Shown here: in pieces, positions 797-28,039 of the stretch
How positions within the stretch are numbered: position 1 is the stretch's first letter
How the letters are laid out: every line of letters starts with the position of its first letter
Assembly (NCBI GenBank): GCA_049999805.1
Contig: JBNGIO010006129.1
Coordinates: forward strand, 115,261-147,275
DNA: 32,015 nucleotides
Source of the DNA: Folioceros fuciformis
Lineage: Eukaryota
Direction of reading: 5' to 3'
Program-made: the position numbers and the translations under genes
Notes under the pieces: generated by a model
Told to the model about the DNA's origin: nothing
What the model saw: the letters and a program-made list of their open reading frames with translations, nothing else
The model's database searches: none

Positions 797-1417
797 CTAC
801 TCAATCACCAGATCCGACGCCTTCTTCTTGAGGCTGGGGAGGTTAGGCCCGAACACGTCCGGGTAGATGGTGAAGATCCACTCGTTGGTCTGGAAGAAGG
901 CGTTGGGGTTAGCAGGGTCGGGACCCTGCGCCACGGTGCGCTGGGTGGCCAGGCCTCTGGCCAGCAAGAAGTCCTCGGTGCCTCCCACGATACTGAAGGT
1001 GCGGACGGTGTTGCTTTTGATGCTGGTGCCGTGCACCTGGATGCCGCCCACCAGTTTATTGTAATTGAAGAGGAATGTGAGGAAGAGCGAGGTGTGGTTG
1101 GTGTTGTTGGCGCGATCCGTGTTGGCACCGATTCCCTTGACGCGACCCAGTTGGAGCGAGCTGGTGCTCTGGCCCTTGAAGATGGGGTCGTCGACCACAA
1201 TGACGCTGCCGAAGCCGAACTGGCCTGGCGCTCTGCTGGCCACCGTCACCTCCGTACCATTGGGTCCATCGATATGGAGCGTGACGAAGACCCTGATCTT
1301 GAGCGGCTTGGGAGTGCCGGCCGGCCGAGGCTTGTACCCCTCCGCCACTACCGCATCCAGCACCAGCAAGGCCACCAGCAGGACCGAAACGTTAACCCAG
1401 GTCCTTGGTGACGCCAT
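797..1417 (-). CDS. Dirigent-family protein 1, single exon, secreted type (~206 aa)
   Basis: Starts MASPRTWVNVSVLLVALLVLDAVVAEG (hydrophobic signal peptide; alternative ATG at 1423). Dirigent motifs FGFGSVIVVDDPI, LGRVKG, RTFSIVGGTEDFLLARGLA. N-glycosylation sequons NGT, NNT, NHT. Stop TAG at 797-799. Confidence 0.9.
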   Translation of the reverse strand: MASPRTWVNVSVLLVALLVLDAVVAEGYKPRPAGTPKPLKIRVFVTLHIDGPNGTEVTVASRAPGQFGFGSVIVVDDPIFKGQSTSSLQLGRVKGIGANTDRANNTNHTSLFLTFLFNYNKLVGGIQVHGTSIKSNTVRTFSIVGGTEDFLLARGLATQRTVAQGPDPANPNAFFQTNEWIFTIYPDVFGPNLPSLKKKASDLVIE

Positions 1418-1617
1418 TCTCATCGATTTGTGTGATCCCGTTCCTCCCCGCCGCTGCACTGCACGAGTGTACGCAAATCTCTCCACCACACTCCTGCCCA
1501 AGAGACCACAAAGCGAAACGACTTCTCAAGCGAATAGATCGGCAACAGCAGGGTCTAGTCCGGCGCAGAAGAGCCCGCGGTACAAGTGCAGTGAGAAGAA
1601 GAGGAGGAGACGGAAGC

Positions 1618-9191: not shown

Positions 9192-9932
9192 TCAGGCGAT
9201 GGTGACGGGGGGCAGAAATTTCTGCAGCGCAGCCAGCCCAGCGACGCGCTTGGCTGTAGTGGCCTCGCTGTCCAAGGTGACGCGCCACACGTTTGTGGAG
9301 CTCTGCTGCCCCGTGGTGTCGTCCACGGAAGAGCTGACGGACGCCTGCGTGGCCACCCCCCTGGCGCTGTGGAAAGCGCCGGTACCCCCCAACACGGCCA
9401 GCTCGCGCACGTCGATGAGCTTGTTGGAGGTGCCGGACACCACCAGGCTGCCGTTCACGGACTCGGTGTCGAAGGTGAAGGTAATGGTGAGCGTGGAGTT
9501 GGAGCTGACGAGGTCGCCTGCGGTGTTGAGGCTGTAGCCCCTGGCGCGGCCCAGCGGTGTGGACGCTGGGTCAGGCCCCTCGGTGAGCGCGTCGTCGAAC
9601 ACCAGGATCTTCCCGAACTTGTTTCTGCTGGGATCCCCGGACGCCGATTCCCATTCCGAGGGCGACTCCCCGCCGGTGGTGAGGTGCACGTAGAACTGGA
9701 AATCCAGAACCGGGGCGTCCTCCCCGCTTCCCACCTTCCGCCCGCCCTGCACCCAAAACTCAACTTCTCCACACCCATCACTTCCTGATTCATGTCTCCA
9801 CAGCACAAAGCCAGACGGTCCGAGCCAAAAATCTAAGCGCTACTTATACGACGGGTAAGAGTACGCATAGCAAAACAAGGAAGATCACGCATCGCTCACG
9901 TTGTCGAGCTCGGAGATCACAGACGCTGCCAT
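9192..9932 (-). CDS. Dirigent-family protein 2 (2 exons, ~195 aa, no evident signal peptide)
   Basis: Exon 9900-9932 (MAASVISELDN), intron GTGAGC...TGCAG (9747-9899), exon 9192-9746 in frame. Motifs FQFYVHL, FGKILVFDDALTEGPDP, LGRARG, RELAVLGGTGAFHSARGVAT. Exon 1 is less certain than the domain. Confidence 0.85.
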
Positions 9933-10772: not shown

Positions 10773-11894
10773 TTATTGGAGAAGCAGCTCAGCCAAACCG
10801 AGGCTGAGATGGTCAGTGAGCAGACTGTCCCGCTGAAGCATGATGGTCCATTTGTTGGTAGACGAAAATTCACCAGCGGAGTTAACGGAAGAAGATACTG
10901 GGCTTTGGATGGCGACGCCATGGGCTACTCGGAAATCTTCCGTGCCAGCCAGAACCGCCACTTCTCGATCAGGCTGTACCTTGTTGGTGGTGCCCCCAAC
11001 GATGAGACTGCCCTTCACGTCACCAGTATTGATCATGAAGGTTAAGAACAGGGAAGAGTTGTTGTTACCAGTAGCTTCATCTGTGTTGACTGCGATGCCT
11101 CTGACACGTCCGATGGGTGTGGAGGCTGGGTCTGGGCCGGTTGTGATCAGGTCGTCCACCGCAAGCACGGTGCCAAACCTGAAGCTGCTGAGATCGCCTT
11201 CCTGTGCAGCCACAGGTACTTCAGAGGCACCTGACCCCCCGATCTGCAGGTGTACATAAAACTTGAAGGAGATGATCGTGTCTTTTGTGCTGTCCAGGGC
11301 CGACCTGGAAAACACCAGTTGCAACATGAGCCTATCCTCCTCAACTCCGGCAGATACATAAGACAGGCCTCTCACCTGGAAGATACTGCACTTTGGTCAA
11401 CAGCTCTGGAATTTTCGGCGATGAGGGCAGTGCTCTGTACACAATGATCCCTGGATTAGCACATAGTGGCAAGGGAAGAAATACTGGTAACCTGGCTTTG
11501 CCTGCATTAGCACATCCTGGCAAGAGACGAGACAGTGGTAACCTGCCTAGCTTTGCAATTGACGTGCAATGATGGGGAGAGGTGATTCCACACTTACATG
11601 GCCATGTTCTGCTGGCGCAGATGGCGGAGACGACAAGATAGTCACTCCTGCTAGTAATGTTGCAACAGCAGCCCGAGATAAGCTTGTCAGCGTTGATGTC
11701 ACGAGGTCTGGTCCATCGGGTGAACCAGGTCTTGGAGTAGCGGGAGAATGCTGGAGCTGATCACGAAACCCCAACTCAGACTTTGGATGTATTCCACATA
11801 CTGCTTGTTTCCCACGTCCCTGGCCTGCATTTTGTTGTGACGAACCGACATCAACGGCAACGAACTTGAAAACCGATGCCCAGTAAGCATCCAT
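10773..11894 (-). CDS. Dirigent-family protein 3 with long N-terminal extension (putative plastid/thylakoid targeting)
   Basis: Domain exon 10773-11304 (FKFYVHL, FGTVLAVDDLITTGPDP, IGRVRG, REVAVLAGTEDFRVAHGVA). Phase-compatible upstream exons 11376-11434 and 11598 onward with GTGAG/GTAAG donors. Start uncertain: ATG at 11894, or a further exon from ~12114 (MATSTFAPP...). Confidence 0.8.
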
Positions 11895-12889
11895 AACACG
11901 TAAGATGCTAGCCTAGCCACTTGACAAGAAGATATGAGATGCCTGTGATCTGGCAAGAGAAGCTTTCCACCGCTCTCTGCTCGAAAACGTTGCGAGTCCC
12001 TGACGATACTGCAACAATCAAGCGGGAAGAAGGTGGACGAAGGAGTGCTCCTGCGAAGGGATCGCATATCCCCATGCCTTGTATCTGTGGAGGAGCGAAA
12101 GTGGAGGTAGCCATCGGCATTGTCCACTTTCGCCAACCCTCCAAGGCCCTAGCCCGAGGGTACGCAGTTCCTAGCACAGTGCAATCTTGGCCATCCCGAG
12201 GGAACCACAACACTCCTGTAAAGGGCAAACCAGTGGGCAATCATTGAGCAGTGCTTGTCAAAGTTTATGCCTAAAAGGGCACCCTGCATACCCGTCGGAG
12301 AATCATAGCCATTCTTCAGAAGGCGTCACGGCTCAAGATTCTAGGCGGCCCACTCGATACTCTATCTAGGCCGGCTGCTGGCACGCGGACACCAGTGTTA
12401 CAGCTGACTGCTCATTTTCGCAACCTAGCCGAAGACAACGACTGCGCAGATCCTGCAATCGCTTGCCTGCCTTGCTCTTTTACACACATGTGCTATGTAC
12501 ATTTTGTTCTGTAGACTGCACACTCAGATGGTAACCTGCAACATCAAAACGTGGGATACGTGCTGGATGCTCGGCTTGCCAAGTAGATGCGGGCAGTTGA
12601 AAAATCATTACGTACAATGCTGTCACAGCTAGATCCAACGCAGCAGCCCACAGACATGTATCTTCATTGCTGCTATGCGTGCACGGCTGTGACTCCCAAG
12701 TTGCCTATGCCTGAACCCGTCGTGATTTGATGGAGTATGTTTTCCAGAGCTTTACGGCTTCCTAGGATGGTGTGATTGGAGCAACTGAAAAGGCGGTAGG
12801 CTGCCAAACCCATTTATAGGTGTCCCGGGCCAGACCGACGGTCATGATAAACGCACGATCGTAGTCACGCAAGCGAAGCTATCACGCCG

Positions 12890-14503
12890 ATGGGGACTTT
12901 AAGCGCTCACGATGTGGGCGTTGCCATGGAGTCGTTATCAGAAGAGGTGCGAGAGCTCTCTCTCGGCACTTCCGGAGAGGTTGAACGTGTGAGGGGTCCT
13001 CTATCTCCCCTGCAGTTTCTCAGGGATTATGTGATGCCTGGTAAGCCATGCATCATCACTGACGCGATTGATCACTGGCCTGCTCTCCGATGCTGGTCCA
13101 ACGAGTACCTCTCTGGTGTGCTGAGAGACCAGACTGTGAGCGTGCACTTCACACCTGATGGGCGGGCGGATGCTGTGTCGGATCCTGGTGTCTTGCAACG
13201 ACTGTATGGCTGCACACTGGCTTCACTGGGTGCTGAGTCTGGTGAGTATGGCTTATTGATGAGGCCTGCCCTGCCCTTGGTGTGGCGGAGTCTTGTCTAC
13301 AGTCTGAGACTACCTGTTTTGTTTCAGAAAAGATGGCACACGCAGCTCTGCTTCACAGGAAGTGAGGGGAAACAGTGGACCGGCAAACACACTTGTGAAC
13401 GGAGGTGAAGATTGTATGCGAAACTCTAGTCCAGTTCGCAGCGAGCGCAATGACTTGCAAGATATTGCAGAAACGGGGCTTGGGTTTTTGTTTGTGACTG
13501 CACATGTCGAGCAATTGCCCTTTCCGGAAGCACTGGAGCTTATTACTCAGGACACCTGCAGCAAGGGCGTGGCATATGCCCAGCACCAGAACGGATGTTT
13601 CTTGACAGAGTACGGGCTGTTGGCAAAAGATGCAGACGAGCATCTACCTTGGGCAACCGAAGCACTGGGTTGCGTGCCCGAGGCGGTTAACATGTGGATT
13701 GGCAATGAGAAGGCTGTGACATCTTTCCACAAGGACCACTATGAGAATTTGTATGCGGTTGTGGCAGGAGAGAAACATTTCACTTTACTGCCTCCTACTG
13801 ATGTGCATCGTCTGTATGTGGATATGTATCCGGCTGCCCAATATTTGAGAGACAAGGTACAGTTGAGTGTTCCATCTTAAATTTGCTCGAATCCCTCCCT
13901 GCTTTGCAGCTGCTTTCTGTCAGACACAGTGTCTTTTTACAGGATTCTGGAAATTTCTCCGTAATTTGCCATCGAGAAGCTCCTGAAGTTCCATGGGTGA
14001 GTGTGGATCCTTATCCACCAGCCTCTGCACTGTCTGAAGCCAGAGCCAAGTTTTCACGATACTTCCAGGGCCCATCTCCTTTCACGTGTACTGTTAAAGC
14101 AGGAGAGATCTTGTATCTGTGAGTCTGCGCTCTGTGGTTGGACCATTCGAGTGTGTGGTGTCCAGCTCTAAAAGTATGAGGTGCTCTTGCCGGTTTCTAA
14201 GTTCACAAACCCTGGCTGGCCTTTATGTCTACAGGCCAAGTTTGTGGTTTCATCACGTTAAACAGTCAGCCGACGCTGAAGGAAAGGCAGTTGCTATCAA
14301 CTATTGTAAGTCCTGATTCTTGGGCACTGACATGGGACAACTTCGGGAAAATTCTGGATGGTTGTGACGATGACAAGATGGCTCCGGGTTTTGCAGGGTA
14401 CGATATGGAGTTTGATGTAAAGTATGCGTACTTCAGCTTCATCAATTCATTGTGGGAAAAGACTGTAGAGGCAGTGACGAAAGCCACCTCGTGTTCACTT
14501 TAA
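12890..14503 (+). CDS. JMJD7: JmjC-domain (cupin_8) 2-oxoglutarate/Fe(II) oxygenase, JMJD7/JMJ32-like
   Basis: Exons 12890-13241, ~13333/13363-13856, 13943-14118, 14235-14305, 14397-14503. Motifs SPLQFLRDYV..GKPCII..AI.HWPAL..W, AVNMWIG, TSFHKDHYENLY, GEILYLPSLWFHHV, AINYWYDMEFD; HxD...H metal triad intact. Confidence 0.92.
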
Positions 14504-14686
14504 CTTGGCCTTCAAATATGATACTTAGCACAAGATGAAGAGGATGGACTTGAGCAATCATATCTTCCTGCCTTTACACCAACTGTAGTATCAATTACAC
14601 CATACCTTGCCGTTCACACTGGATCTCCTCGATCCTCGTTCAGAACCTCCTCCCACCTACGAAGTGCATCCGCATCCCTCAACATC

Positions 14687-16407
14687 TCATGTGCCTACGA
14701 GAAGTTCAAGCACGTACCAATTGCCGGGGGGAGATAAACTGTACCTCTTTTTAATAAGAAAACGCAGTTGGGCTGACTCCCCGTCCTTCTCTTGATGTTG
14801 CTGTAAAAGTAGAGCTTTGGTTGAGCGCTTGGATCGTGGTCATACCATGCGAAACTCAAAACAGCAAGAGTCTGCCATGCAGGTCCCCACGAGTACAAAC
14901 CAGAGATAGAAGTCGTTCATCCTCCAAATATTTTAGCCATCTCCTATACAGCTGGATGGCTAGTGCTACTGATGAAAGAACAGTTGCCAGAATTAGGAAG
15001 AAAGAGAAGCTGCGCTGTGGAGATCCCTGCAAGACGTCATTGAACAATCTCAACCCTGTCAACGGAAGCTGACGACAGACTGATCTAAATGTGAGGAGAA
15101 GAAGTGAAATGCAGTGGGTACCTGGAAAAGTGGGTGTGACAAACAGGACACCTCCAACTGTTGAGAGATCGTTGCTGAGGCTGATGCTCGCTGTATTCTT
15201 GGCTTGGAAAACCATTTCAAACAAAACCTTCGCGACCTCATATTTTGTGCTTGTCTAGCCTGTCATCAACCAATCAGCTGCCTTTAAGCAATTAACCAAA
15301 CTGAGGCGAACGAGACCCTGTGTAACAACGTCCTACAAAGTAATGAAGGATCAAACCAGAAGACGAGAATATGCCTCCCGAGATTGCCTTCCAAATATTC
15401 CAGTGGGAACGACACCGTTTTGCCTCTGCAACACAAGCATGTCTCATCACATTGTCTAAAAGCGAAATGGAAAGGCAAGCAATCCCTTAACGTGATGATT
15501 ACCTGCCACTCTTGGACCGCAGCTTGTGTTTGAAAACCGAAGTACCCAGTGCATCCATCGGGGGAACTGAAGTGTCCTGCAGAAAGGAGGATTTTGCTGA
15601 GACCCCTATGCAGGAAACAAGAGAGAAAGCTGCCACTATCGGCTCCATGTCCGAAATCACGAACCCGTGGATTGCAGATACTGTTGCAACTGGCGTACAT
15701 CCTCACCACAAACCCCTTTCAAAAGGACACGATCGCCAAAATCGTACAGCTTCTGCAGGGCACCTGTCCCTCGATTAGCTTCTTTCCTACTGTTAGAAAG
15801 TTATAAGCCTACACAACACAAGACCTCAGACCTTCCAACGGAGGATTTACAGCACAAAAATCTCACAGCTTGTAGAGGATCATGCACTTCGCTGAACACA
15901 AGCTGCTGTTTCACTAGGCACCGCTCTCTGAATAGGGACAAACTAGCGTGGTTTTGAGAATCCTCCATTTATTGCCTACCGGCAGCAAGAAAGCATGGAG
16001 GAGGATACAACATCTGGAACAAGTACCCCGGCCCTTCGCAGCAAGTGTTTATCCAAATCTGAGAGCTGGTTGGCATTACTCCAATCTTCAGAAGCGATGA
16101 AAGGTGCGAAGTCCAATAACCGAGTACTGCTCGCAACGAATCCTGTTCTCGGAAGGAATGTGGAAGGTGATAGCGCCCCCCGACTAACTCCAATTTCAGA
16201 TGAGGACAACGTGGTGAACTTGTTCTTTCCTGCGTTCCAGGCTAGAGCTGGGCATCGCAACGAACAGAGGAACGTGCGACTAGCCAAATCCATGCCACCT
16301 GCCAGATCCGGCACACATTTCTCTGCCGAGCCTGCACATAAACTCACGCTGCAGCTCCGTAAGCTGCTGCCCATCGATGTTTGGAACGTTCCTTCGAGGC
16401 CGCGCAT
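14687..16407 (-). CDS. Putative organelle-targeted protein with a peptidoglycan-binding (PG_binding_1-like) domain and one transmembrane helix
   Basis: Exons ~15665-15789, 15503-15576 and 15357-15425 join in phase via GT-AG introns to give FGDRVLLKGVCGEDVRQLQQYLQSTGHFSSPDGCTGYFGFQTQAAVQEWQRQNGVVPTGIFGRQSREAY. Further exons 15152-15259, 14901-15068 (FSFFLILATVLSSVALAIQLY) and 14687-14800. First exon (~15980-16407) is Ser-rich and transit-peptide-like; 5' splice choices are ambiguous. Confidence 0.72.
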
Positions 16408-16696
16408 CACCCGCAGGAGGATGGACTGCGAGAATTTCGTGCTGGTCAGAAAATAGAAGCTCGCATTCCTACGACTGAACCACGTGTGCAGGATGGAGGT
16501 TGCACGTTGTCAGACGGGAGGGACGTACAGTATCTCCGAATCTCGCCTGCAACGATCAGACGCCTTCAAGTCTGAGCATCGTTGATTGCGTGCTATTTTC
16601 ACCTGTGTCCAGTGGGCCATACGGCTTAGTGCGATAAAGCCTAGATTAGGCCTTCATCGTAGTTTCGGATGTGAGCGATAGGCTTAGGCGGACAGG

Positions 16697-18488
16697 ATGC
16701 TGAGGGCTAGCGAGCAGGGGCTGCGATCCGCCCAGAAGTGTCTGCAATGGGCGAGAATCTGGGTGTCACGTGAGGGACATGCGGCACCTCTGCATAGGCC
16801 GATTTTCTGTCTAGCAGGCCGGAAAGGACCGGGATGCGGCAACAATCCAATTGGGTCCCGATGGAGCTGGCAGGAAATGGTAGTCCCTGCGCAGCAATTC
16901 GGCCCCTTCTCCTTCCAACAGTCCAGGGGAGCGAAAGTGAATGGATCAGAGGTTTGTGTTCACTCATGTCCAGTGAAGCAGGGTATGATTCCTCTGCAAT
17001 GCTGAAGTCAGTTAGAATCGTGTGCTTCGCAGGTGAGGGCAGGCCAAGTGATAGAGCGGAATGGTGGGTGTTTTCAGCTGCTGGAGTTCTAGACTTTGAG
17101 GTCTCCGGAGTGGAAATGCAATTTTTGACGAAGTTGTTTGTTATGCTCTGTTGTGCTCTCGGGTTCTTCACATGGTGGCTCTCCCTCACTGATCTACTGC
17201 AGGTCGACTCTGCCAGGTCAGCGGTGTTTGTCATCTTGCCTCACTGTCTGGGTGGCGAACTTGTTGACCAAGTGTTCATGTGCAAACTGCTGGGCCTGTA
17301 GGTTTTGAGAACGCAACATACACAGCAAGGCCGTGGGGGAGCTGTAATTCAGGCAAGGGCTATTCTTCAACTGCTCTGTGGTCAGGGTTAGCCTTGGGCC
17401 ATTCAGAGTAACTGGTGTCATTCATGGAGCAGGCTGAAGTTCGAGATGTTCAGAGTGGCCTGAAGTCAACCGAGAGATTTCGCACAAGTGAAGCTATTGA
17501 AAGTGTGTGAAGCTACCCCTCCTCTGTCAACACAGTCAAAACAATTGCCACAAGAATGTTTTTTTTGGCTTGCGTGCAAGAGCCTGGCTCGTGATGAAGG
17601 GATTTTCTCAGGGGTATTCGTAGAGGAGAAGAGCTTCACCTTTTTGTACGAGGAGGGAGGTTTAATCGTTCTTATGGAGTAAGCACCTTGCAATGCATCT
17701 GGCCGCGTTCCAGGCAATTTTGCGTAGGGTGTGTCCATGTTGCCTTTCTGATTCTTGGGCACGTGTCCAGTCCCACGACTTTTGAGCAGGTAGAGCTGTC
17801 GAAGGAACTGTTCGGTGGTCAAGCAGCATACCTGACCGGTACGCTGTAAACAAATTCACCCTACTTTTATGGTGATTCGCTCCTCAGCTCTTACCGTGGT
17901 TCACATGCTTGCCCCAGATGGTCTGGCTGTTTCTGTGCAGGAGTATGATGGAAAGCCCCTTTCTGCAACAGTTCCCTCCAAGGTCACTTGCACAGTTGCT
18001 GAAGCTGAACCATACTTCAAAGGCCAGACAGCAACACCCACGTTTGTTCCCAACTCTCTCACTGTCTGCTTACTACATCTCAAAGACGGTACTGGTCAAG
18101 TTTCCTTATGATGGTTCGAAATTTTGCCTTGTACTGATCAGTTACAAGAAGGCGGTGCTTACAAATGGAGCGACAGTGATGGTAGGTGTATGCAGATAGA
18201 GTTAGTGTACCTTCTTTTCTGTTGATGTGCTCAGTACCAGTCAGCCAAGGTTGCTGACAACTGTTTGACTCAGTCTTCCCACTCTTGTTCTTTTTGCAGG
18301 TGCCATCCTTTATTGTGCAAGGAGATGAAATTGTTGTCGATACTGCAAGTAACTCATACGTCACCAGGTGGGTATAAAAAAGTTGCTTCGCGTCGTCCCG
18401 TTTTTTGATACGCTCTGTTGCAAGATTGGTCTGAGCAAGCCTTTCGACTGAAGATTGACTCGTCTCATATTTCAGATCAAAAGAATGA
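16697..18488 (+). CDS. EFP: Organellar (probably mitochondrial) translation elongation factor P, 11 exons
   Basis: Exons 16697-16951, 17033-17063, 17203-17216, 17302-17352, 17433-17502, 17612-17678, 17771-17838, 17918-18041, 18142-18181, 18300-18367, 18476-18488. Protein: ...QQSRGAKVNGSEVRAGQVIERNGRLCQVLRTQHTQQGRGGAVIQAEVRD...FTFLY...TFEQ...KGQTATPTYKKAVLTNGATVMVPSFI..GDEIVVDT...YVTRSKE. Arg-rich presequence. Confidence 0.92.
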
Positions 18489-18782
18489 GAAGACACATTA
18501 ACGATGACTGCCGTTTGGCACCAAGTGCTTACCTCCATCTAAAGCTTTCAACTTTCAACATTACTTATTAACACGTTCGCCGATACAGTGGCGCGTTTTC
18601 CTGACAGAACTCCAAATTGCCAGGCCTTGTTTCAAGAGATTCAAAAGAAAAATATCCGCAGACCTATGACAGCTTAGAAGGTTTTCAATCGAGAGGGATT
18701 ACAATAGAGGGAACATTCTGTCCTTCTCTTCCGTATAATAACCATCGTCACTGGAGGAGGGTCTCTTGGGAGGGTCTCTTCG

Positions 18783-21700
18783 TCAGACCTTACTGGCTTT
18801 CATTTCTGAGGAGTCTTGGGGAAAACAGGCCCGCTCAACACACCTTACCACGGACGACTGAAGATCTGGAACCGGTACTGAAGGCTCGGCAGTGCCCCGG
18901 CAAAAAGGGCAACATCCCTGATCCAGGAGGGCAATATCCCACTCCTCTTGCTCAAAGAAGTGGTTGCAGGAGGTACACAGACTCACAGCGAGCAGGGGAT
19001 CGACAAGGAAAAAATATCGATGCTTTTGTCCGCTGGCACGAGGCTCCTGAATCAGAACCTGACTCCTCTCCAGACGAGCGAGAGTGGCAGTCCCAACTTC
19101 GATTGTCCCAGCTTTCTTGGAAGATGATAAAAGCAGCACATGCTGCCCCAACAACGGATTCATCCCAACCAGATCCTCTGAGCCCAGATTGTTGAGATAC
19201 TTGGCTTGTATTCTTAAAGCTTGTAAATGTTTGGGAGGGCGAGATTGTATGAGCTGCAAAGCCTGCTCATGCGTCGTTCCTTCCTCTAGAACGAACTCCA
19301 CCTGTAATCATAGCCACGAGCATCAGAAACGTACCGGCAGCCGTCTTGTTCGATACATCAAGTTAGTTCAAAGTAAACAACAACAACCAGAGGAAGTTGA
19401 TCAAAAGTTGTGAACGATCTGAATATGGCTTGATTGCATCTGCTGCAAGAGATCTCGCTTTCTGATGTCACAGGTGGCATAGGAGCAGAGCAGTTGTAAC
19501 AAAACGGGACGTCGTAACTTGATTTTGGGTCGTCAGGACGAGAAGCTTTTGCACGGGCAATTAAGGTAGCCACCTCCAACTTTTCCGCCCAATTCTTTGG
19601 AACCCTGAGGCTTCGCAGTCCTTCATATGCGTGACTGGCTGCTTTATGACAACCTGCAACGTCTCAGCAGCATACAGTCAGGAATGTTCGACTGGGAGTC
19701 TTCAGGAGATGTGGAGAGGAGTGGTACACATCTTACCGAGCTCTTCCCCTTGCCTTGCCAGTGTCACAAGAGTGTTGACCAGTGACATACCCTTCGGTCG
19801 CATGCTCGACACTTGAGACATGAGGTAGCGTCCGATGTTGAACAGGGTATCTGGTCTGGTCGTTCTGAATGGTTCATTAATCGATTGATCAATGAACGAG
19901 TATGCATAATATATCTCCGCCTGCTTCTGCATGGACAAGTACTCATCAAGCGTATGCCGAGTATTGGCCTGGTCAATGCTCCCATTGCATAACTCCAGAA
20001 TCTCTAGTGCCAGTTGCCAGGAGAGGTACGAAGCATCCTTGAAGCGTTTCTCCTTCACCTGCACTACCCATTGAGAGAAGTTGGAACCTGTTGAAGACAG
20101 TTTCTGGTTGCCGCTAAGTCTGCAGCGAGATTTACCAGCGACATCGTACCGCATTCTCAATAAGTTGATTTTGCAGTCGTTGAGACAAATCATGTCTACC
20201 ATCTGCCCTGTAGACTGCTCTAGCATCATGAAACCGGTCACTCTTGATTAGCCACTCTGCGTATGGCCGCGAGACATCCTCATCTATCTCAGGATGTAGT
20301 TTTTTTACGGCAAAAGCATCTTCCCACTGGTGTAACTCCATGTGAAGGAAGAGAGTTGACCTGAATTCAGCATACACGCATTCAGCATTCCTCCTGTGAG
20401 AGTGTTATGCACACTTCTAACTGTGGAATTTAGCAGCAACTTTTTGGCGCACACCTGTGGTCACCGAGCTTGTTATACGTTTCAAAAGCATGGGCATACT
20501 GTCCTGCCTGACGCATCAAAGATGCACACAAGTTCAGCTCAGATATCCTTGTTTGGTCCAGCTTCCTTGCAACCTGCAGAATCCCCAATCCTGATCAAAG
20601 ATAGACAAGGTCAAATGAGCGAAGGGAAAAACACTCAAGCACGCAGTTTTGCACCTCGATAAGCTTCTTAGCTGGACCATGGTCCGCAATTAAGGCAAGA
20701 GCTTTCTCAGGTTGACCAGCAACTAGATACATGTCTGCCGCACTTTCATGATCCATGGTCTGTGCGCTCCACTCTGCTTGCTTTTGAACGATGTCTGTAA
20801 CCCTGGGTCTACTTGACACGTTTGTCTGCGCATCCTTCTGCGCCAATGCTTTGGCCTCGTCGAACATGCGTAGGTCTGAGAACATGTCCATGGCCTTATC
20901 TATCTGTCCTGCCTCAATATATGTCTTGGCTGCCTCATCAAAATCCCCCTGTACCATGGTTGCAACGATGAGTGTATACCTCCCATCGAGCCAAAAACAG
21001 CGGCATGGAATTATGATCATTCCAAGTACCTGGTATGCAAGAACACAAGCCAGAAGTGTTGCCTTTGGCATATTTGAACGTCCTTGACACAGGCGGTGGA
21101 TTAGCCCCAGGAAGCAGACATCCTTGATGCGGACAAAGCTGGCACGAGCAACCTCCCAGTTTTGATCCTGTAGAGCTTCAACCGCCAGGAGACGCCAATC
21201 AGCCTCTGTAACACCAAGGCATGCTACCCTGTAGGCTTGGTCAAACTGCTTCTGTTCCACGTAGTGACGCATACTTGTCGATTGTGGAACTTCAATAGTC
21301 TACTCAACATCACACAACCCTGTGAATGAATCAGTGCATCTTGATATTCGTCCGGCCCCAACGCCCAGGAAATTGTATACAGTAGATCAAAAGAAGACCT
21401 GCATTGACAAATGATGAAGGCAGAATATCTTTGAACCCTGAAATCCAACAACATATCCTTGCAATTTCTGACGATGCACAGGAAAATCTGCAGTCTTGAT
21501 GTTCAACATTCCACTACCAGAGTAGCACAGCATGGTTTCCATCTCTGTGTTCCAAGCAACCGAACTTGCTTGCTTGTCCTCAAACACTATGTCGTTGGTC
21601 TGCAGCAAGCATTTCCAACAATTATGATGACAGAAGCAAAGGCAAACCAGAATAATGACCAACTACCACAGACTCGATGTGCCAGGACAATGCATGACAA

Positions 21701-24610
21701 CTTTGGTGGTAGACAGTACTCCTTGTAACCTCATACCTCGAGGTCGTAGACAAAGAGGTGGGAGCTGTCATCGACCACGGCCAGCTTGGAGCGTTTTGAT
21801 GATAAATCAAGGCAACGAATGGCATCTGTATGCTGGTACAATCGCACAGGAAATGTACTCCGAAGCCACACCCTGACAATCAAGCCATTTTTCATTCCCA
21901 CCAATAGCCCCTCTCCACCAGGAGGACCACCACAAACCTGTACATCATCATGGACTTTGTCAGCAATAGCTACAAAAGCATTCCTGTTGCATCCTTAACT
22001 TGTCCTGCGGTAGAGCATACCGTTGACACAATTAGCCCCTTCCTTTGTTTGCTTACAACCTCACTCTATGTGGCAACGATGGGGAATGATAAAAGGACAG
22101 ATAACAGAAGACATGAAACCTTGATGTATCTGATAGTGGATTCCAAAATCCATTCCTTCTGCTTGGTTCCATCCAGAGCATAAAGCTGCAGCTTCGTATC
22201 CTGTGAATTCACGACAACAACCTGAGCCAATCGGTGGAAGAGAAGTACTCTGCCTTGTCACCTGCGTCTAGAGAAGCTCAGATGTACGAAACCAAGAAGC
22301 TGAGTCCAGGCTTACCTGACAAAGAGTTAGATGCTCTGCAGTAAGAACCAGAAGATTGCACTCAAGGGAGCGGTTGATAATTGCACATGGATTATACACA
22401 GGTTTCATAGCAACCTCCTCACTCAGTTCATAGACAATAAGACGGTTGGACAGCTGGACGGCCACCCTGCCCTGATAAACTGCTATCTTCTTTATATAGT
22501 CAGCACACTTGATGCGCACCTGATGGCCAATTCAGTTTAGACTGGCTACTCATTCTATGAGGTAACTTACTGTTTGAATGTAGAGGATCTTTCTTATGAA
22601 CCCATCATTTTACATGCATTGGATGCTTGTCAGCAAATGGGTATAGCAGTCACGCTGAGCTCCTTCTCACTTGCCTGACCTTCTCATTTGTTAACAAATG
22701 TTGGACAACCACATCCGTCATGACGTCTCTAAATGCATAACGCTCCTTGTATAATCCATGCACCTGAGGAGAGCGGTAATGGTGAACATGTATCAAAGTG
22801 TTGTCTTCTCAATCGCCAATGATCCAGAAGCTCTTCACAAGGACCAGAATTGTACCGTAGAGAAGACTAACTGAAGCATAGAGATGCTGCCATCGTTGCA
22901 TCCAACTACAATGAAATCATGCTTCGGACGTGACCGAACTGTCCAAACCCAGTCTGACGTCTCACACAATACTGTGAGCTTTATACCTTCAACAGAATAC
23001 ATCACCACCTGCTCAAAGAGGGAGACTCATTTGAATGAGTGTGACATTCAGGCATCTGACATTCGGCACAAACACATTCAAGGTGAGATTACCATGTTGT
23101 CCGATCCGCCAACAGACAAGTACTTCCCATCGTGATAACTGACACAACAAGGATTAAACCCAAGGTCGTTGTCCTTGCCGATCTGGTAGGAAAGCAAATG
23201 GGGAAAATGAAAAATATTACAACAAATGTTTTGCCGCAGTTTGGATGACAGATACAGATGCAAACCTGCTTGCCTGCTAAATCATAGAAAGAGAGGGTGT
23301 CATCCCAGCAGCCAACGGCAAGGGTATCTGATGTCTTATTTTGTGTCAAGTTCCACTGCAACGTCCAGATAGGTTCGGACCGTTCAATGACGACCTGCAG
23401 GGCATGTGGTAACGTGGACTTAGTGGATCCTCTGTTTAAGTGGCATTTCCAGCATCCCGACGCAGATGAAGGGGCCAAAAGGAAGCAAGTGCATGCAAAG
23501 AAGCCCAAACCTGTTCAACTCCATTCTTGTCGCAGATAGAGATTTGGCCACTGAACATTCCCAATGCCAAACGCTGCCCATCTCCAGTCCAGGAACAGCA
23601 GAGGATCTGATCGTACTTGTTTTATTAGCAGAGATTATGTAAATCTGAGCAGATAGATGTGAACCCCATATCAGCCGTGGAAAGATCAGCTACCAAGAAA
23701 TACCTTAGAGGCAGCTTTATGCTTGACAACAGACTTTTGCTCCGGTGACCATATCCCAAAATCTTTTGCCGTTCCACTCGCCAGCTGCTAGCAGCCGAGA
23801 CTGAGTAGTCATAAAGAGAAAAAGGAAGGAAGGACGGGTAGTAGAGAAAGACAGCTGAACTGACCTGCTGAGTGACAGGATTGTAAGCAAGACACTGCAC
23901 AGAATCACCATGGCTGTATTTGAGGATTCCCTCTGCCTGCACGGATAGAGCAAAACCATCTTGCTTCTCAGATGCTACATCTGATCAGGATACCACTATC
24001 CGCACTCGGAGACAAACCAGAACAAGTGCGGGACAAACCTTGTGAGTCCATATGATGATTGTCTTGTCAGCACCTCCTGAAGCAAATCTCTTTCCGTCAC
24101 GAGAGTAAGCCACACAGTACACGGCATCCTTGTGACCTGGAAAGACTCTTGACGTGAGTTGTTGTACAATCTCGCAAGCTCCCACTTCAGGTGACGAGGG
24201 AGGAGTTGCAGCACGCTGACCTTTAAGAGAATGTAGCAAATCCCCCTCCTCTGCATCATACATGAGCACTCTACTTCCAACAGCTGCAATAAGCTGACTG
24301 CCATCTGCGAAGGCAAAAGCTGCCTCAGTCAAAATGTCGTTGTCACCTCAAGTCTGCAACCACCTCCAACATAGCACAGGACAAGACTCAACCCGAAACT
24401 CCCATCCTTGAACTACCTGGTCTAAAGGCCACATCGTAGCAGATGCTCTTAATTCCATCATGCTCCGGCTAGGGGGCCACAAACCCAATCAAGGAGCATC
24501 AGCACAAACGCTCATCCCGCTGCCCAGTACCTCCTCTCAGCTCAGATGCCGTGAGAGAACAATGAAATGGAGCATACCACTTGATCAGTCCATGCTACAA
24601 CTGCTCGCAT
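18783..24610 (-). CDS. IFT122: Intraflagellar transport protein 122 (IFT-A; WD40 plus TPR-like), multi-exon
   Basis: Starts [11 protein letters not shown]...[14 protein letters not shown]. Contains [109 protein letters not shown], and C-terminal [10 protein letters not shown]...CPFCR. No disabling mutation in the exons I checked. Confidence 0.95.
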
Positions 24611-26041: not shown

Positions 26042-26870
26042 CGTGTCCTCTCTTCCGTGTACTATATTCGTAACACAAACCAGGAATTCAAAAAACGTTC
26101 GATATCGTCTCGAACTACAGTAGCTGGATACGCAAGGCCGATGTCTCGGGACACGGTCTACAGTCTTAATCTAGTTTCCTGTTTCGCCGTAATTTCTTCC
26201 CCACAATCTAAGCACTTGCACTTGTTTGGTCTCACCACGTTTTGCACTCAGATCGTAATTCCCTACAGAGACAAGTGCGCCAACCTTTTTGTACATAAAG
26301 TGTAGTGCCGATGTGAGGCATGCAAAGCTCAGACTAGGACACTGTTGCACTCGCCCACACGCGCGATTCGCAGGAGTCTAAAAGAACTACGGGCCAGTTT
26401 GCACATTGGGCAAACCACGACGTATCTACAGCGCAATCATGATCTAAGTCCACAGTTCACACAATACCGACCTACTTTCCTCTAGCACCTACCTGCTTTC
26501 TACAATAAACCTTTTACCATACTTCACTCAGAAAAGCCTCTGAATGAACAGCACATGCTTGACTGCCACTCGCCAGAAGCTGATCCCTCGCACCCGCTCC
26601 CGAGTACGTGCACAATTAAGGAAGCTCCTGAGACTCCAGGGCTTAGGTGTCGTACCTTATTTCGTGTAGAGACGAGCTACCTGTAATACCACAGGCATTC
26701 TCCAAGAGCATCCGGATCCAAGCCTGCTGGTTAGCCACAACCGAGAAATTCTGTCGAGAAAAATCCTTAACACAGTGACGGTGTGGCCTGAAGTCGGGAT
26801 CCTACTCCATAATGCGAAAAGAATATCAGAATGATAGGAACCACACCCAGCCGAAGCATCAAGTCTTTGC

Positions 26871-28039
26871 CTAGAGGGCCATTTCTGCTTGTAAAGCGGC
26901 AAGCTCATCTTCTTCCGCAGAGCTCGGCTGAGGCACTTTTTGAGGCGCTGGCTTCTGGGCAGGCCTGTATGGCGTGGAAGGCATCGGAGTAGTAACACTT
27001 GGTGTGAGTAGTTGGTCTTCGAAGTCCGTTCCCTCCAGCTCTTCCAGCTCAGCGTCCAACTCATCCTGAAAAACGCCAAATACACCAGTAAATACTTCAC
27101 AATGAAAGAATCACGACCTGTGAGGATTTCACTCGGCAACACACTTACCTCGTCAAAATCAGCAGCCGCTCCAATGGGAGTCGACAAAGCTTCTTGAATC
27201 TGCTTCATGTTCTCTGTCTGCTCATTAATCTCATCCATGGTCTTGTCGACGTCATCTATATTCCTGTGATGAAAGTGGAAAAACATTGGTACTCGGAGAT
27301 CACTGTGTGATATCTAGTTCAGATGCACTCGGTATCACAAAAAGCACGGTAAGGAAAACATACGTAGCCTTCTGAATGGCCTTCATGGCAGTTGCTCCGC
27401 TGCGCAGGGCATCAACCGTCTCTGTTGTAGCTTTGGCTCCTTCAAGCATTATCATCTGCAACAGTATATAAGTACCATAACAGGGTCAGAAACACAAGTC
27501 GCTTTGAATCTGTTCTACACAGAATCGCTACACAATGTCAGCAACAGCACCTGGTCGTGAATCCGCAACTGAAAATTCCCAAGCTGCTCCACCTGAACTT
27601 CGTACAGCTTCTTTCTCTTGAGGCATTGAAGGGCAGCTGCATGACAGACAACCAACGAAGTAACGAAGGATTTGAGTCCACCATTTCACCACCAGATACA
27701 TTATCTCTAACACAACCAACTCACAACGAGAACAAAAACACAACCTCTCCAACGAACCTCTTTTATTTTTTTGACGTACTGCATCCCTAGCTTTCTCAAT
27801 TTCACTGGCGATTTTCTTCTGCAGCACCTTCTCTTTTTTCTCCAGCATATCAAGAGTCTGCACTACCGATAACACCAGCATGAGCTAAGACCGACATGAG
27901 CCAACCCATGCAACTACATTGACGACTCACAAGACAAATACAAACATCTCAGACTCAGATGCATCACCTCACTCAGCTTGTCGAGTGTCGAAAGAGTCGA
28001 CGGCTCTTCCTTAGGCCGGCCAAACAGTCTGTTGAACAT
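26871..28039 (-). CDS. VPS32: ESCRT-III subunit VPS32/SNF7, 6 exons, 219 aa
   Basis: Exons 27968-28039, 27758-27857, 27551-27636, 27364-27455, 27149-27263, 26871-27065 (660 nt). TLDMLEKKEKVLQKK, KNKRAALQCLKRKKLYE, NIDDVDKTMDEINEQTENMKQIQEALS, EEDELAALQAEMAL. Confidence 0.96.

What the first reader, a model, noticed from the sequence alone, without database searches (positions are those of the whole stretch)
14687..16407. Hidden gene for a membrane-anchored peptidoglycan-binding protein, a candidate chloroplast envelope-to-wall tether
Seen: three short exons splice in phase into a bacterial-type PG-binding helical domain (L.KG..GEDVRQLQ..L...G....TGYFG..T.AAV..WQ..NG..PTG.FG..S), followed by a ~21-aa hydrophobic helix and basic residues. 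A Ser-rich N-terminus precedes it. No protease or DnaJ Zn-finger domain is visible, so the architecture differs from the plant PG-binding-domain proteins I know (matrix metalloproteinases, pTAC5). Established: the moss Physcomitrium patens keeps a peptidoglycan layer around its chloroplasts that is needed for plastid division. Inference: this may be an uncharacterised envelope protein binding plastid peptidoglycan. I cannot tell whether orthologues have been described.
Basis: partly seen in the sequence, partly recalled or inferred. Interest (0 to 1): 0.8.

Follow-up and report, generated by a model that had tools for sequence, protein, structure and literature searches.

The report
Plant membrane protein, bacterial wall-binding fold
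This is a real, spliced gene of a seed-free land plant for a probably chloroplast-bound membrane protein carrying an unusually bacteria-like wall-binding domain, but its layout suggests the domain may face the chloroplast interior, so a role in tethering the chloroplast's peptidoglycan wall is possible but unshown.

Summary
The gene is real: seven exons, minus strand, 16407-14687, 329 aa. Two of six introns are seen as joints in one public run; three more fit its contig ends and depths; intron 5 is unconfirmed. Exons 2-4 build a PG_binding_1-type domain: 64.9 bits on a profile of 26 bacterial domains, best of 1000 shuffles 4.7, up to 58% identical to bacterial domains. One hydrophobic helix (aa 257-277) with RR..K follows; a Ser/Thr-rich leader precedes. 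It is neither the host's pTAC5-like nor its metalloprotease gene. The host encodes PBP, MraY, MurJ, MurB and Ddl matches, so it probably has a plastid wall. The tether idea has a topology problem: leader, then domain, then single helix is the stop-transfer layout, which leaves the domain in the stroma, away from the wall. No plant or algal orthologue was retrieved, but no search used the whole spliced protein. Best reading: stroma-facing membrane adaptor (0.4); wall tether 0.3. Nine literature searches found no description.

The parts
16027..16407 (-). Exon 1 (aa 1-127): Ser/Thr-rich leader and linker; Met1, Met12 and Met39 are possible starts
   Evidence: Contig 16027-16425 in X1; from Met39, 27% S+T, 7 basic and 2 acidic residues in 60
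15753..16026 (-). Intron 1, 274 nt, phase 0; apparently partly retained
   Evidence: Inferred from contig ends 16027 and 15724 and leftover depth; unspliced contig 15724-16056 at depth 9.1
15665..15752 (-). Exon 2 (aa 128-156): start and first helix of the PG-binding-fold domain
   Evidence: PF01471 profile 2-16; profile alignment
15503..15576 (-). Exon 3 (aa 157-181): TGYFG turn and second helix
   Evidence: PF01471 profile 21-38, E 0.004; joint 15425/15503
15357..15425 (-). Exon 4 (aa 182-204): TGIFG turn and third helix
   Evidence: Both flanking introns seen as joints
15122..15259 (-). Exon 5 (aa 205-250): basic linker (8 basic, 1 acidic in aa 207-255)
   Evidence: Acceptor fixed by joint 15258/15356; donor not confirmed
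14901..15026 (-). Exon 6 (aa 251-292) with the single hydrophobic helix (aa 257-277, 15008-14946) and RR..K behind it
   Evidence: Hydropathy 2.24; splice sites GT..AG
14687..14800 (-). Exon 7 (aa 293-329) and stop: end of the 52-aa tail
   Evidence: Contig 14397-14801 is ungapped over it and ends at the acceptor

Best explanation
A nucleus-encoded single-pass membrane protein of the plastid. Shown: spliced gene, PG_binding_1-type three-helix domain, one hydrophobic helix. Inferred: the leader is a transit peptide; import stops when the helix reaches the inner envelope (stop-transfer, as for ARC6), or the protein goes on to thylakoids. Either way the domain stays in the stroma and the 52-aa tail lies on the other side. 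The protein would then be a membrane anchor that holds a partner at the stromal face through the domain: a protein complex, as for the same fold in nucleoid protein pTAC5, or the peptide-sugar precursors of the wall before they are flipped. It would not grip the finished wall.
For: Order leader-domain-helix, with one helix only and no second signal-like stretch (best 11-residue window outside the helix 1.45). The helix has no proline and clustered Phe, features named for inner-envelope and stop-transfer helices, whose proteins keep the N-terminus in the stroma (PMC5853536 passages). The same fold works in the stroma in pTAC5 (PMC4080259 passages). The host's pTAC5-like gene has an intron after the same W-Q position, and a clade of the two domains is not rejected (p-AU 0.389).
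Against: The domain is much closer to bacterial domains (55% over 71 aa, 73 bits) than to host pTAC5 (33%, 38 bits) or metalloprotease (24%, 23 bits). It keeps both G-x-F-G turns that those two have changed, which fits a kept wall-binding surface; the bacterial set was, however, chosen for likeness. The basic residues directly behind the helix would, by the positive-inside rule (recalled), put the tail in the stroma and the domain outside. No partner is identified and targeting was not predicted with a dedicated program.
Confidence: 0.4

Rival explanations
1. Envelope-to-wall tether. The domain lies in the intermembrane space and binds plastid peptidoglycan, while the helix sits in the outer envelope (tail in cytosol) or the inner envelope (tail in stroma). 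It would couple membrane to wall as Pal, Lpp or OmpA do in proteobacteria.
For: Host has intron-split PBP, MraY, MurB and Ddl matches and a MurJ match. The domain is the most bacteria-like of the host's three (64.9 against 42.3 and 31.9 bits). RR..K follows the helix. A cyanobacterial PF01471 membrane protein, SjcF1, structures peptidoglycan (PMC4488944 passages). The proteobacterial tethers are reported missing from cyanobacteria and glaucophytes, so the role is open (PMC4015805 section 11). No SLH match in the host (0 candidates; short split domains are easily missed).
Against: Needs a non-default route to place a roughly 190-aa N-terminal part in the intermembrane space, and no signal for it is seen. 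PF01471 in host pTAC5 and metalloprotease shows that the fold persists without a wall ligand. No binding, localisation or co-occurrence data.
Confidence: 0.3
2. Mitochondrial or dual-targeted inner-membrane protein with a repurposed domain in the matrix.
For: The leader from Met39 is basic and poor in acidic residues (7 against 2 in 60), which also fits presequences (own knowledge).
Against: High Ser/Thr (27%) and length fit plastid leaders better (own knowledge); no mitochondrial ligand is apparent.
Confidence: 0.12
3. Sensor of bacterial (pathogen or symbiont) wall fragments, anchored by its C-terminal helix with the domain in the cytosol; possibly a lineage-restricted gain from bacteria.
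For: Nearest sequences found are Patescibacteria domains at 50-58%; the domain sits among them in the tree at 91/89; no plant relative was retrieved. PMC9434261 (passage) expects many moss PG-binding proteins to serve defence.
Against: No signal peptide for the cell surface. Six spliceosomal introns suggest long residence. The tree held no cyanobacterial or algal rows and does not reject kinship with pTAC5. The orthologue searches were weak.
Confidence: 0.12
4. Weakly functional or decaying gene with inefficient splicing.
For: Intron 1 unspliced contig at depth 9 against about 12 for the inferred spliced arm; retention would stop translation 16 codons into the intron; unexplained depth near intron 5.
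Against: Intact 329-aa frame over seven exons and a well-kept domain.
Confidence: 0.06

Closest known systems
PF01471 (PG_binding_1) domains of Patescibacteria surface proteins (e.g. P0037, P0049, P0102; locus L035)
   Same: 50-58% identity over 62-85 aa; same TGYFG..T..A[VL]..WQ form (72 of 139 motif matches in the 122 fetched proteins are TG/WQ)
   Different: Those are bacterial proteins of 159-1258 aa among the best 25; blastp similarity is confined to aa 126-209 of the model
pTAC5 (At4g13670), plastid nucleoid protein
   Same: Plastid protein with a PG-binding domain (PMC4080259 passages); host copy shares an intron position in the domain
   Different: pTAC5 has a C4 DnaJ zinc finger; this protein has none and has a hydrophobic helix instead; domains only 33% identical; the host has its own pTAC5-like gene (L002)
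Plant matrix metalloproteinases (Peptidase_M10)
   Same: PF01471 match (host L001, 44.5 bits)
   Different: No protease domain here; 24% identity in the domain
SjcF1 (All1861) of Anabaena PCC 7120
   Same: PF01471 domain plus one transmembrane segment in the cyanobacterial envelope (PMC4488944 passages)
   Different: Two PG-binding domains and an SH3 domain; sequences not compared
Moss plastid wall proteins DipM (LysM + M23) and PBP with PDV2
   Same: Nucleus-encoded envelope proteins acting on plastid peptidoglycan (PMC4015805, PMC12681378 passages)
   Different: Other domain families and enzymatic; this protein has no catalytic domain

Membership tests
PF01471 PG_binding_1 | Homology over the whole three-helix domain | tested here: met
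   64.9 bits over aa 137-207 on a profile of 26 of the 50 PF01471 matches; best of 1000 shuffles 4.7; its nearest member there scores 42.1 bits on PF01471
PF01471 PG_binding_1 | Score above Pfam's cut-off (23 bits) on the mature protein | tested here: inconclusive
   Only unspliced pieces were scanned: 17.7 and 17.9 bits on successive parts of the profile
PF01471 PG_binding_1 | Binds peptidoglycan | not testable with these tools
   Needs a pull-down
pTAC5 | C4 DnaJ-type zinc finger | tested here: not met
   No CxxCxGxG in the translated model (read); present in L002
Matrix metalloproteinases | Peptidase_M10 domain | tested here: not met
   No match in the exon translations scanned; L001 matches at 164.7 bits
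SjcF1 | Two PG-binding domains and an SH3 domain | tested here: not met
   One domain on the profile; no SH3 match in any exon
Plastid envelope proteins | Cleavable transit peptide | tested here: inconclusive
   Composition only; no targeting predictor available
Envelope-to-wall tethers (works-like claim) | Binding domain on the wall side of the membrane | tested here: inconclusive
   Layout favours the stroma; flanking charge favours the other side
Envelope-to-wall tethers (works-like claim) | Host makes peptidoglycan | tested here: inconclusive
   5 pathway families matched (PBP, MraY, MurJ, MurB, Ddl; Ddl_N below cut-off exon by exon); the other Mur genes not searched; wall not shown
Envelope-to-wall tethers (works-like claim) | Orthologues track the Mur/PBP set | not testable with these tools
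   No eukaryotic orthologue retrieved

The most novel reading that the evidence does not exclude
The first non-enzymatic membrane anchor of the plastid peptidoglycan wall in land plants: a PG_binding_1 protein that ties an envelope membrane to the wall during division, filling the role of Pal/Lpp/OmpA, with a domain that may have come from a non-cyanobacterial bacterium.
Probability: 0.25. Interest if true: 0.8.

Novelty: new variant of a known kind. Interest (0 to 1): 0.47.

Why it matters
How the envelope membranes of wall-bearing plastids are held to the peptidoglycan is an open question (PMC4015805, section 11). This gene is a small, directly testable candidate: one domain to purify, one topology to determine, one knockout. 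If the domain faces the stroma, it is a further case, after pTAC5, of a bacterial wall module put to another use inside plastids, which is of more modest interest.

Tried and rejected
Orthologue searches, all without the whole spliced protein and so weak. Exon-2 query: 0 of 7 candidates. One genomic frame holding exons 2, 4 and 6 against 1.84 billion representatives: 2 hits at E about 8e-4, almost wholly in intron or out-of-frame parts and without PF01471, rejected as chance; that search also missed the bacterial domains, which shows its low power. Profile with a bacterial scaffold: 1638 of 2377 candidates passed, 120 were listed, all named ones bacterial; the other 1518 were not seen. Exon-only profile: 2 of 69, unnamed bacterial-type fragments. 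Genome contigs: 1 of 376 stretches, a Saccharibacteria locus. Metagenome contigs: 0 of 445 and 0 of 592. Plasmids: none for exon 3; 3 records for a bacterial proxy. Atlas: generic PF01471 clusters below 0.9 and one unnamed cluster at 0.92. PDB: nothing for the genomic frame; 4lpq at E 0.027 for the proxy. No paralogue in the host genome, 1 of 1 candidate being the gene itself. Earlier findings by sequence, place and relatives: none. No run was on record as RNA; X2 and X3 did not cover the gene. Gene-model alternatives rejected: short extra exons inside intron 1 (contig ends fit one 274-nt intron), and a 48-nt intron in exon 7 (contig ungapped there). A first exon-6 end at 14898 was wrong and was corrected; the pTAC5 domain carried two intron residues, corrected. 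MAFFT piled the exon pieces on each other, so those profiles were poor. Patescibacterial origin is not claimed: biased sampling and p-AU 0.389.

Full report
Observation. The finding lies on the minus strand. Seven exons from ATG 16407 to the stop at 14687, all with GT..AG introns, give one frame of 329 aa (one search had the end of exon 6 wrong by one codon).

Splicing. One public run, X1, holds 0.68 of the sampled words; it is only guessed to be RNA and may be the genome's own sample. Laid on 12300-19000 it shows GT..AG joints in both neighbouring genes and two CT..AC joints in this gene, introns 15502-15426 and 15356-15260 (15 of 18 joints shown; X2 and X3 did not cover the gene). The other introns are inferred. 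A contig ends at 16027, the predicted donor, and an unspliced contig begins at 15724, 30 letters inside exon 2 counted from the acceptor; leftover depth on both sides equals 30-nt arms at about 12x. This fits a single 274-nt intron 1, with an unspliced form at depth 9. Depth leaves no room for cover of intron 2 over 15577-15659 and little for intron 6. The bin holding intron 5 has 7398 depth units unexplained, so that intron is unconfirmed; if retained, it would end the protein 20 codons in, before the helix.

Domain. Pfam on unspliced pieces gives PF01471 for exon 3 (17.7 bits, profile 21-38) and for the frame with exons 2 and 4 (17.9 bits, two stretches, best at profile 2-16); both are under the cut-off of 23. 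A profile built from 26 of 50 PF01471 matches in 81 genomes of one bacterial phylum scores the spliced protein at 64.9 bits over aa 137-207; the best of 1000 shuffles scores 4.7. The host's pTAC5-like and metalloprotease domains score 42.3 and 31.9. Best pairwise identities to bacterial domains are 50-58%, against 33% to host pTAC5 and 24% to the metalloprotease. In a 49-row, 90-column tree the domain falls among Patescibacteria rows at 91/89, below the tool's threshold for firm support, and a clade with pTAC5 is not rejected (p-AU 0.389). No cyanobacterial or algal domain was sampled and the bacterial set was chosen for likeness, so the origin is open.

Rest of the protein. One hydrophobic window stands out (2.24; best elsewhere 0.86): aa 257-277, followed by RR..K and a tail of 52 aa. 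The linker before it is basic. From Met39 the first 60 residues have 27% Ser+Thr, 7 basic and 2 acidic residues; Met1 and Met12 give 4 acidic. This fits a transit peptide but is not a prediction. There is no signal-peptide-like stretch.

Host. The assembly is 87 Mb. The window holds three dirigent genes and IFT122, so the host is a land plant with flagellated sperm and a compact genome; 14 RNA-supported introns average 94 nt. A hornwort, lycophyte or other seed-free plant is my inference; it is not shown to be a moss. The genome has matches to PBP transglycosylase, MraY, MurJ, MurB and Ddl, most split by introns; other Mur genes were not searched. A PF01471 search found 2 matches among 3 candidates, a metalloprotease and a pTAC5-like gene; this gene is a third, missed because it is split.

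Relatives. No eukaryotic orthologue was retrieved (counts under Tried and rejected). None of these searches used the whole spliced protein, and one search failed even on the bacterial domains, so this is not evidence that the gene is lineage-specific. An earlier, unchecked AI note (e1-560662) describes an Ostreococcus gene of 981 letters with presequence, PG-binding fold and one helix in an alga said to lack most peptidoglycan genes. I could not obtain its sequence; orthology is untested.

Mechanism. Moss peptidoglycan is placed in the intermembrane space (PMC12681378, PMC9434261; passages; the latter calls it anticipated). Single-helix proteins that stop at the inner envelope, such as ARC6, keep their N-terminus in the stroma, and such helices tend to lack proline and cluster aromatic residues (PMC5853536, passages). 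This protein has that layout, so by default the domain faces the stroma, where pTAC5 uses the same fold (PMC4080259, passages). I therefore rank first a membrane anchor presenting the domain to a stromal partner, a protein complex or unflipped wall precursors (0.4). The tether comes second (0.3): the domain is the most bacteria-like of the host's three, the basic residues behind the helix allow the opposite orientation (positive-inside rule, recalled), the host has the pathway, and no tether is known (PMC4015805, section 11). Mitochondrial targeting, a cytosolic sensor of bacterial walls and a decaying gene share the rest.

Known or new. It is homologous to PF01471 but fails the defining features of pTAC5, metalloproteinases and SjcF1. 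Nine full-text searches listed no paper whose title or abstract start describes such a plant protein. The library lacks most subscription papers; Chang 2024, Utsunomiya 2021 and Hirano 2016 were seen only as citations. Seen: bioRxiv 10.1101/2023.05.02.539068, parts 1-2 of 3; passages of PMC9954125, PMC12681378, PMC4488944, PMC4080259, PMC13650779, PMC9434261, PMC8964177, PMC4015805, PMC4164004, PMC5853536; a term search of 4 supplementary files of PMC11135702, with no PF01471 hit (49). The orthogroup tables of the bioRxiv paper were not seen and may bear on distribution.

Verdict. Observation confirmed, interpretation partly supported. New variant of a known kind; interest 0.47, or 0.8 if it proves to be the wall tether (probability 0.25).

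Noticed in passing
window 15753-16026: Intron 1 appears partly retained (unspliced contig at depth 9 against about 12 for the inferred spliced arm); retention stops translation before the domain.
   Followed up: partly
window 14988-15211: Depth exceeds a single spliced contig by 7398 units; an alternative form near intron 5 could give a soluble protein without the helix.
   Followed up: partly
window 15503/15502 and L002 1501/1500: This gene and the pTAC5-like gene both have a phase-0 intron after the W-Q of the second helix; common descent, or chance at a CAG|G site.
   Followed up: partly
window 12851-14503 (+): Cupin_8/JmjC gene (family scans; joints); one unstranded contig runs 13941-14801, so its 3' end overlaps that of the studied gene.
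   Followed up: partly
window 16622-19000 (+): EF-P-like gene head to head with the studied gene, about 200 nt between their contigs; its contig runs into the last IFT122 exon.
   Followed up: partly
window 17203-17216 (+): The 10 letters between the sides of joint 17065/17300 match 17205-17214, inside a 14-nt stretch flanked by AG and GT: a probable micro-exon of the EF-P-like gene.
   Followed up: no
window 18783-24347 (-): IFT122, pointing to a plant with flagellated sperm.
   Followed up: partly
window 797-1525, 9192-9839, 10773-11396 (-): Three dirigent-like genes.
   Followed up: no
window 26657-27313 (-): Snf7-family match.
   Followed up: no
G000:C6298:50621-53910 (L043, L044): Two Ddl N-terminal domain matches in tandem, 2.5 kb apart: a doubled Ddl or two genes.
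   Followed up: no
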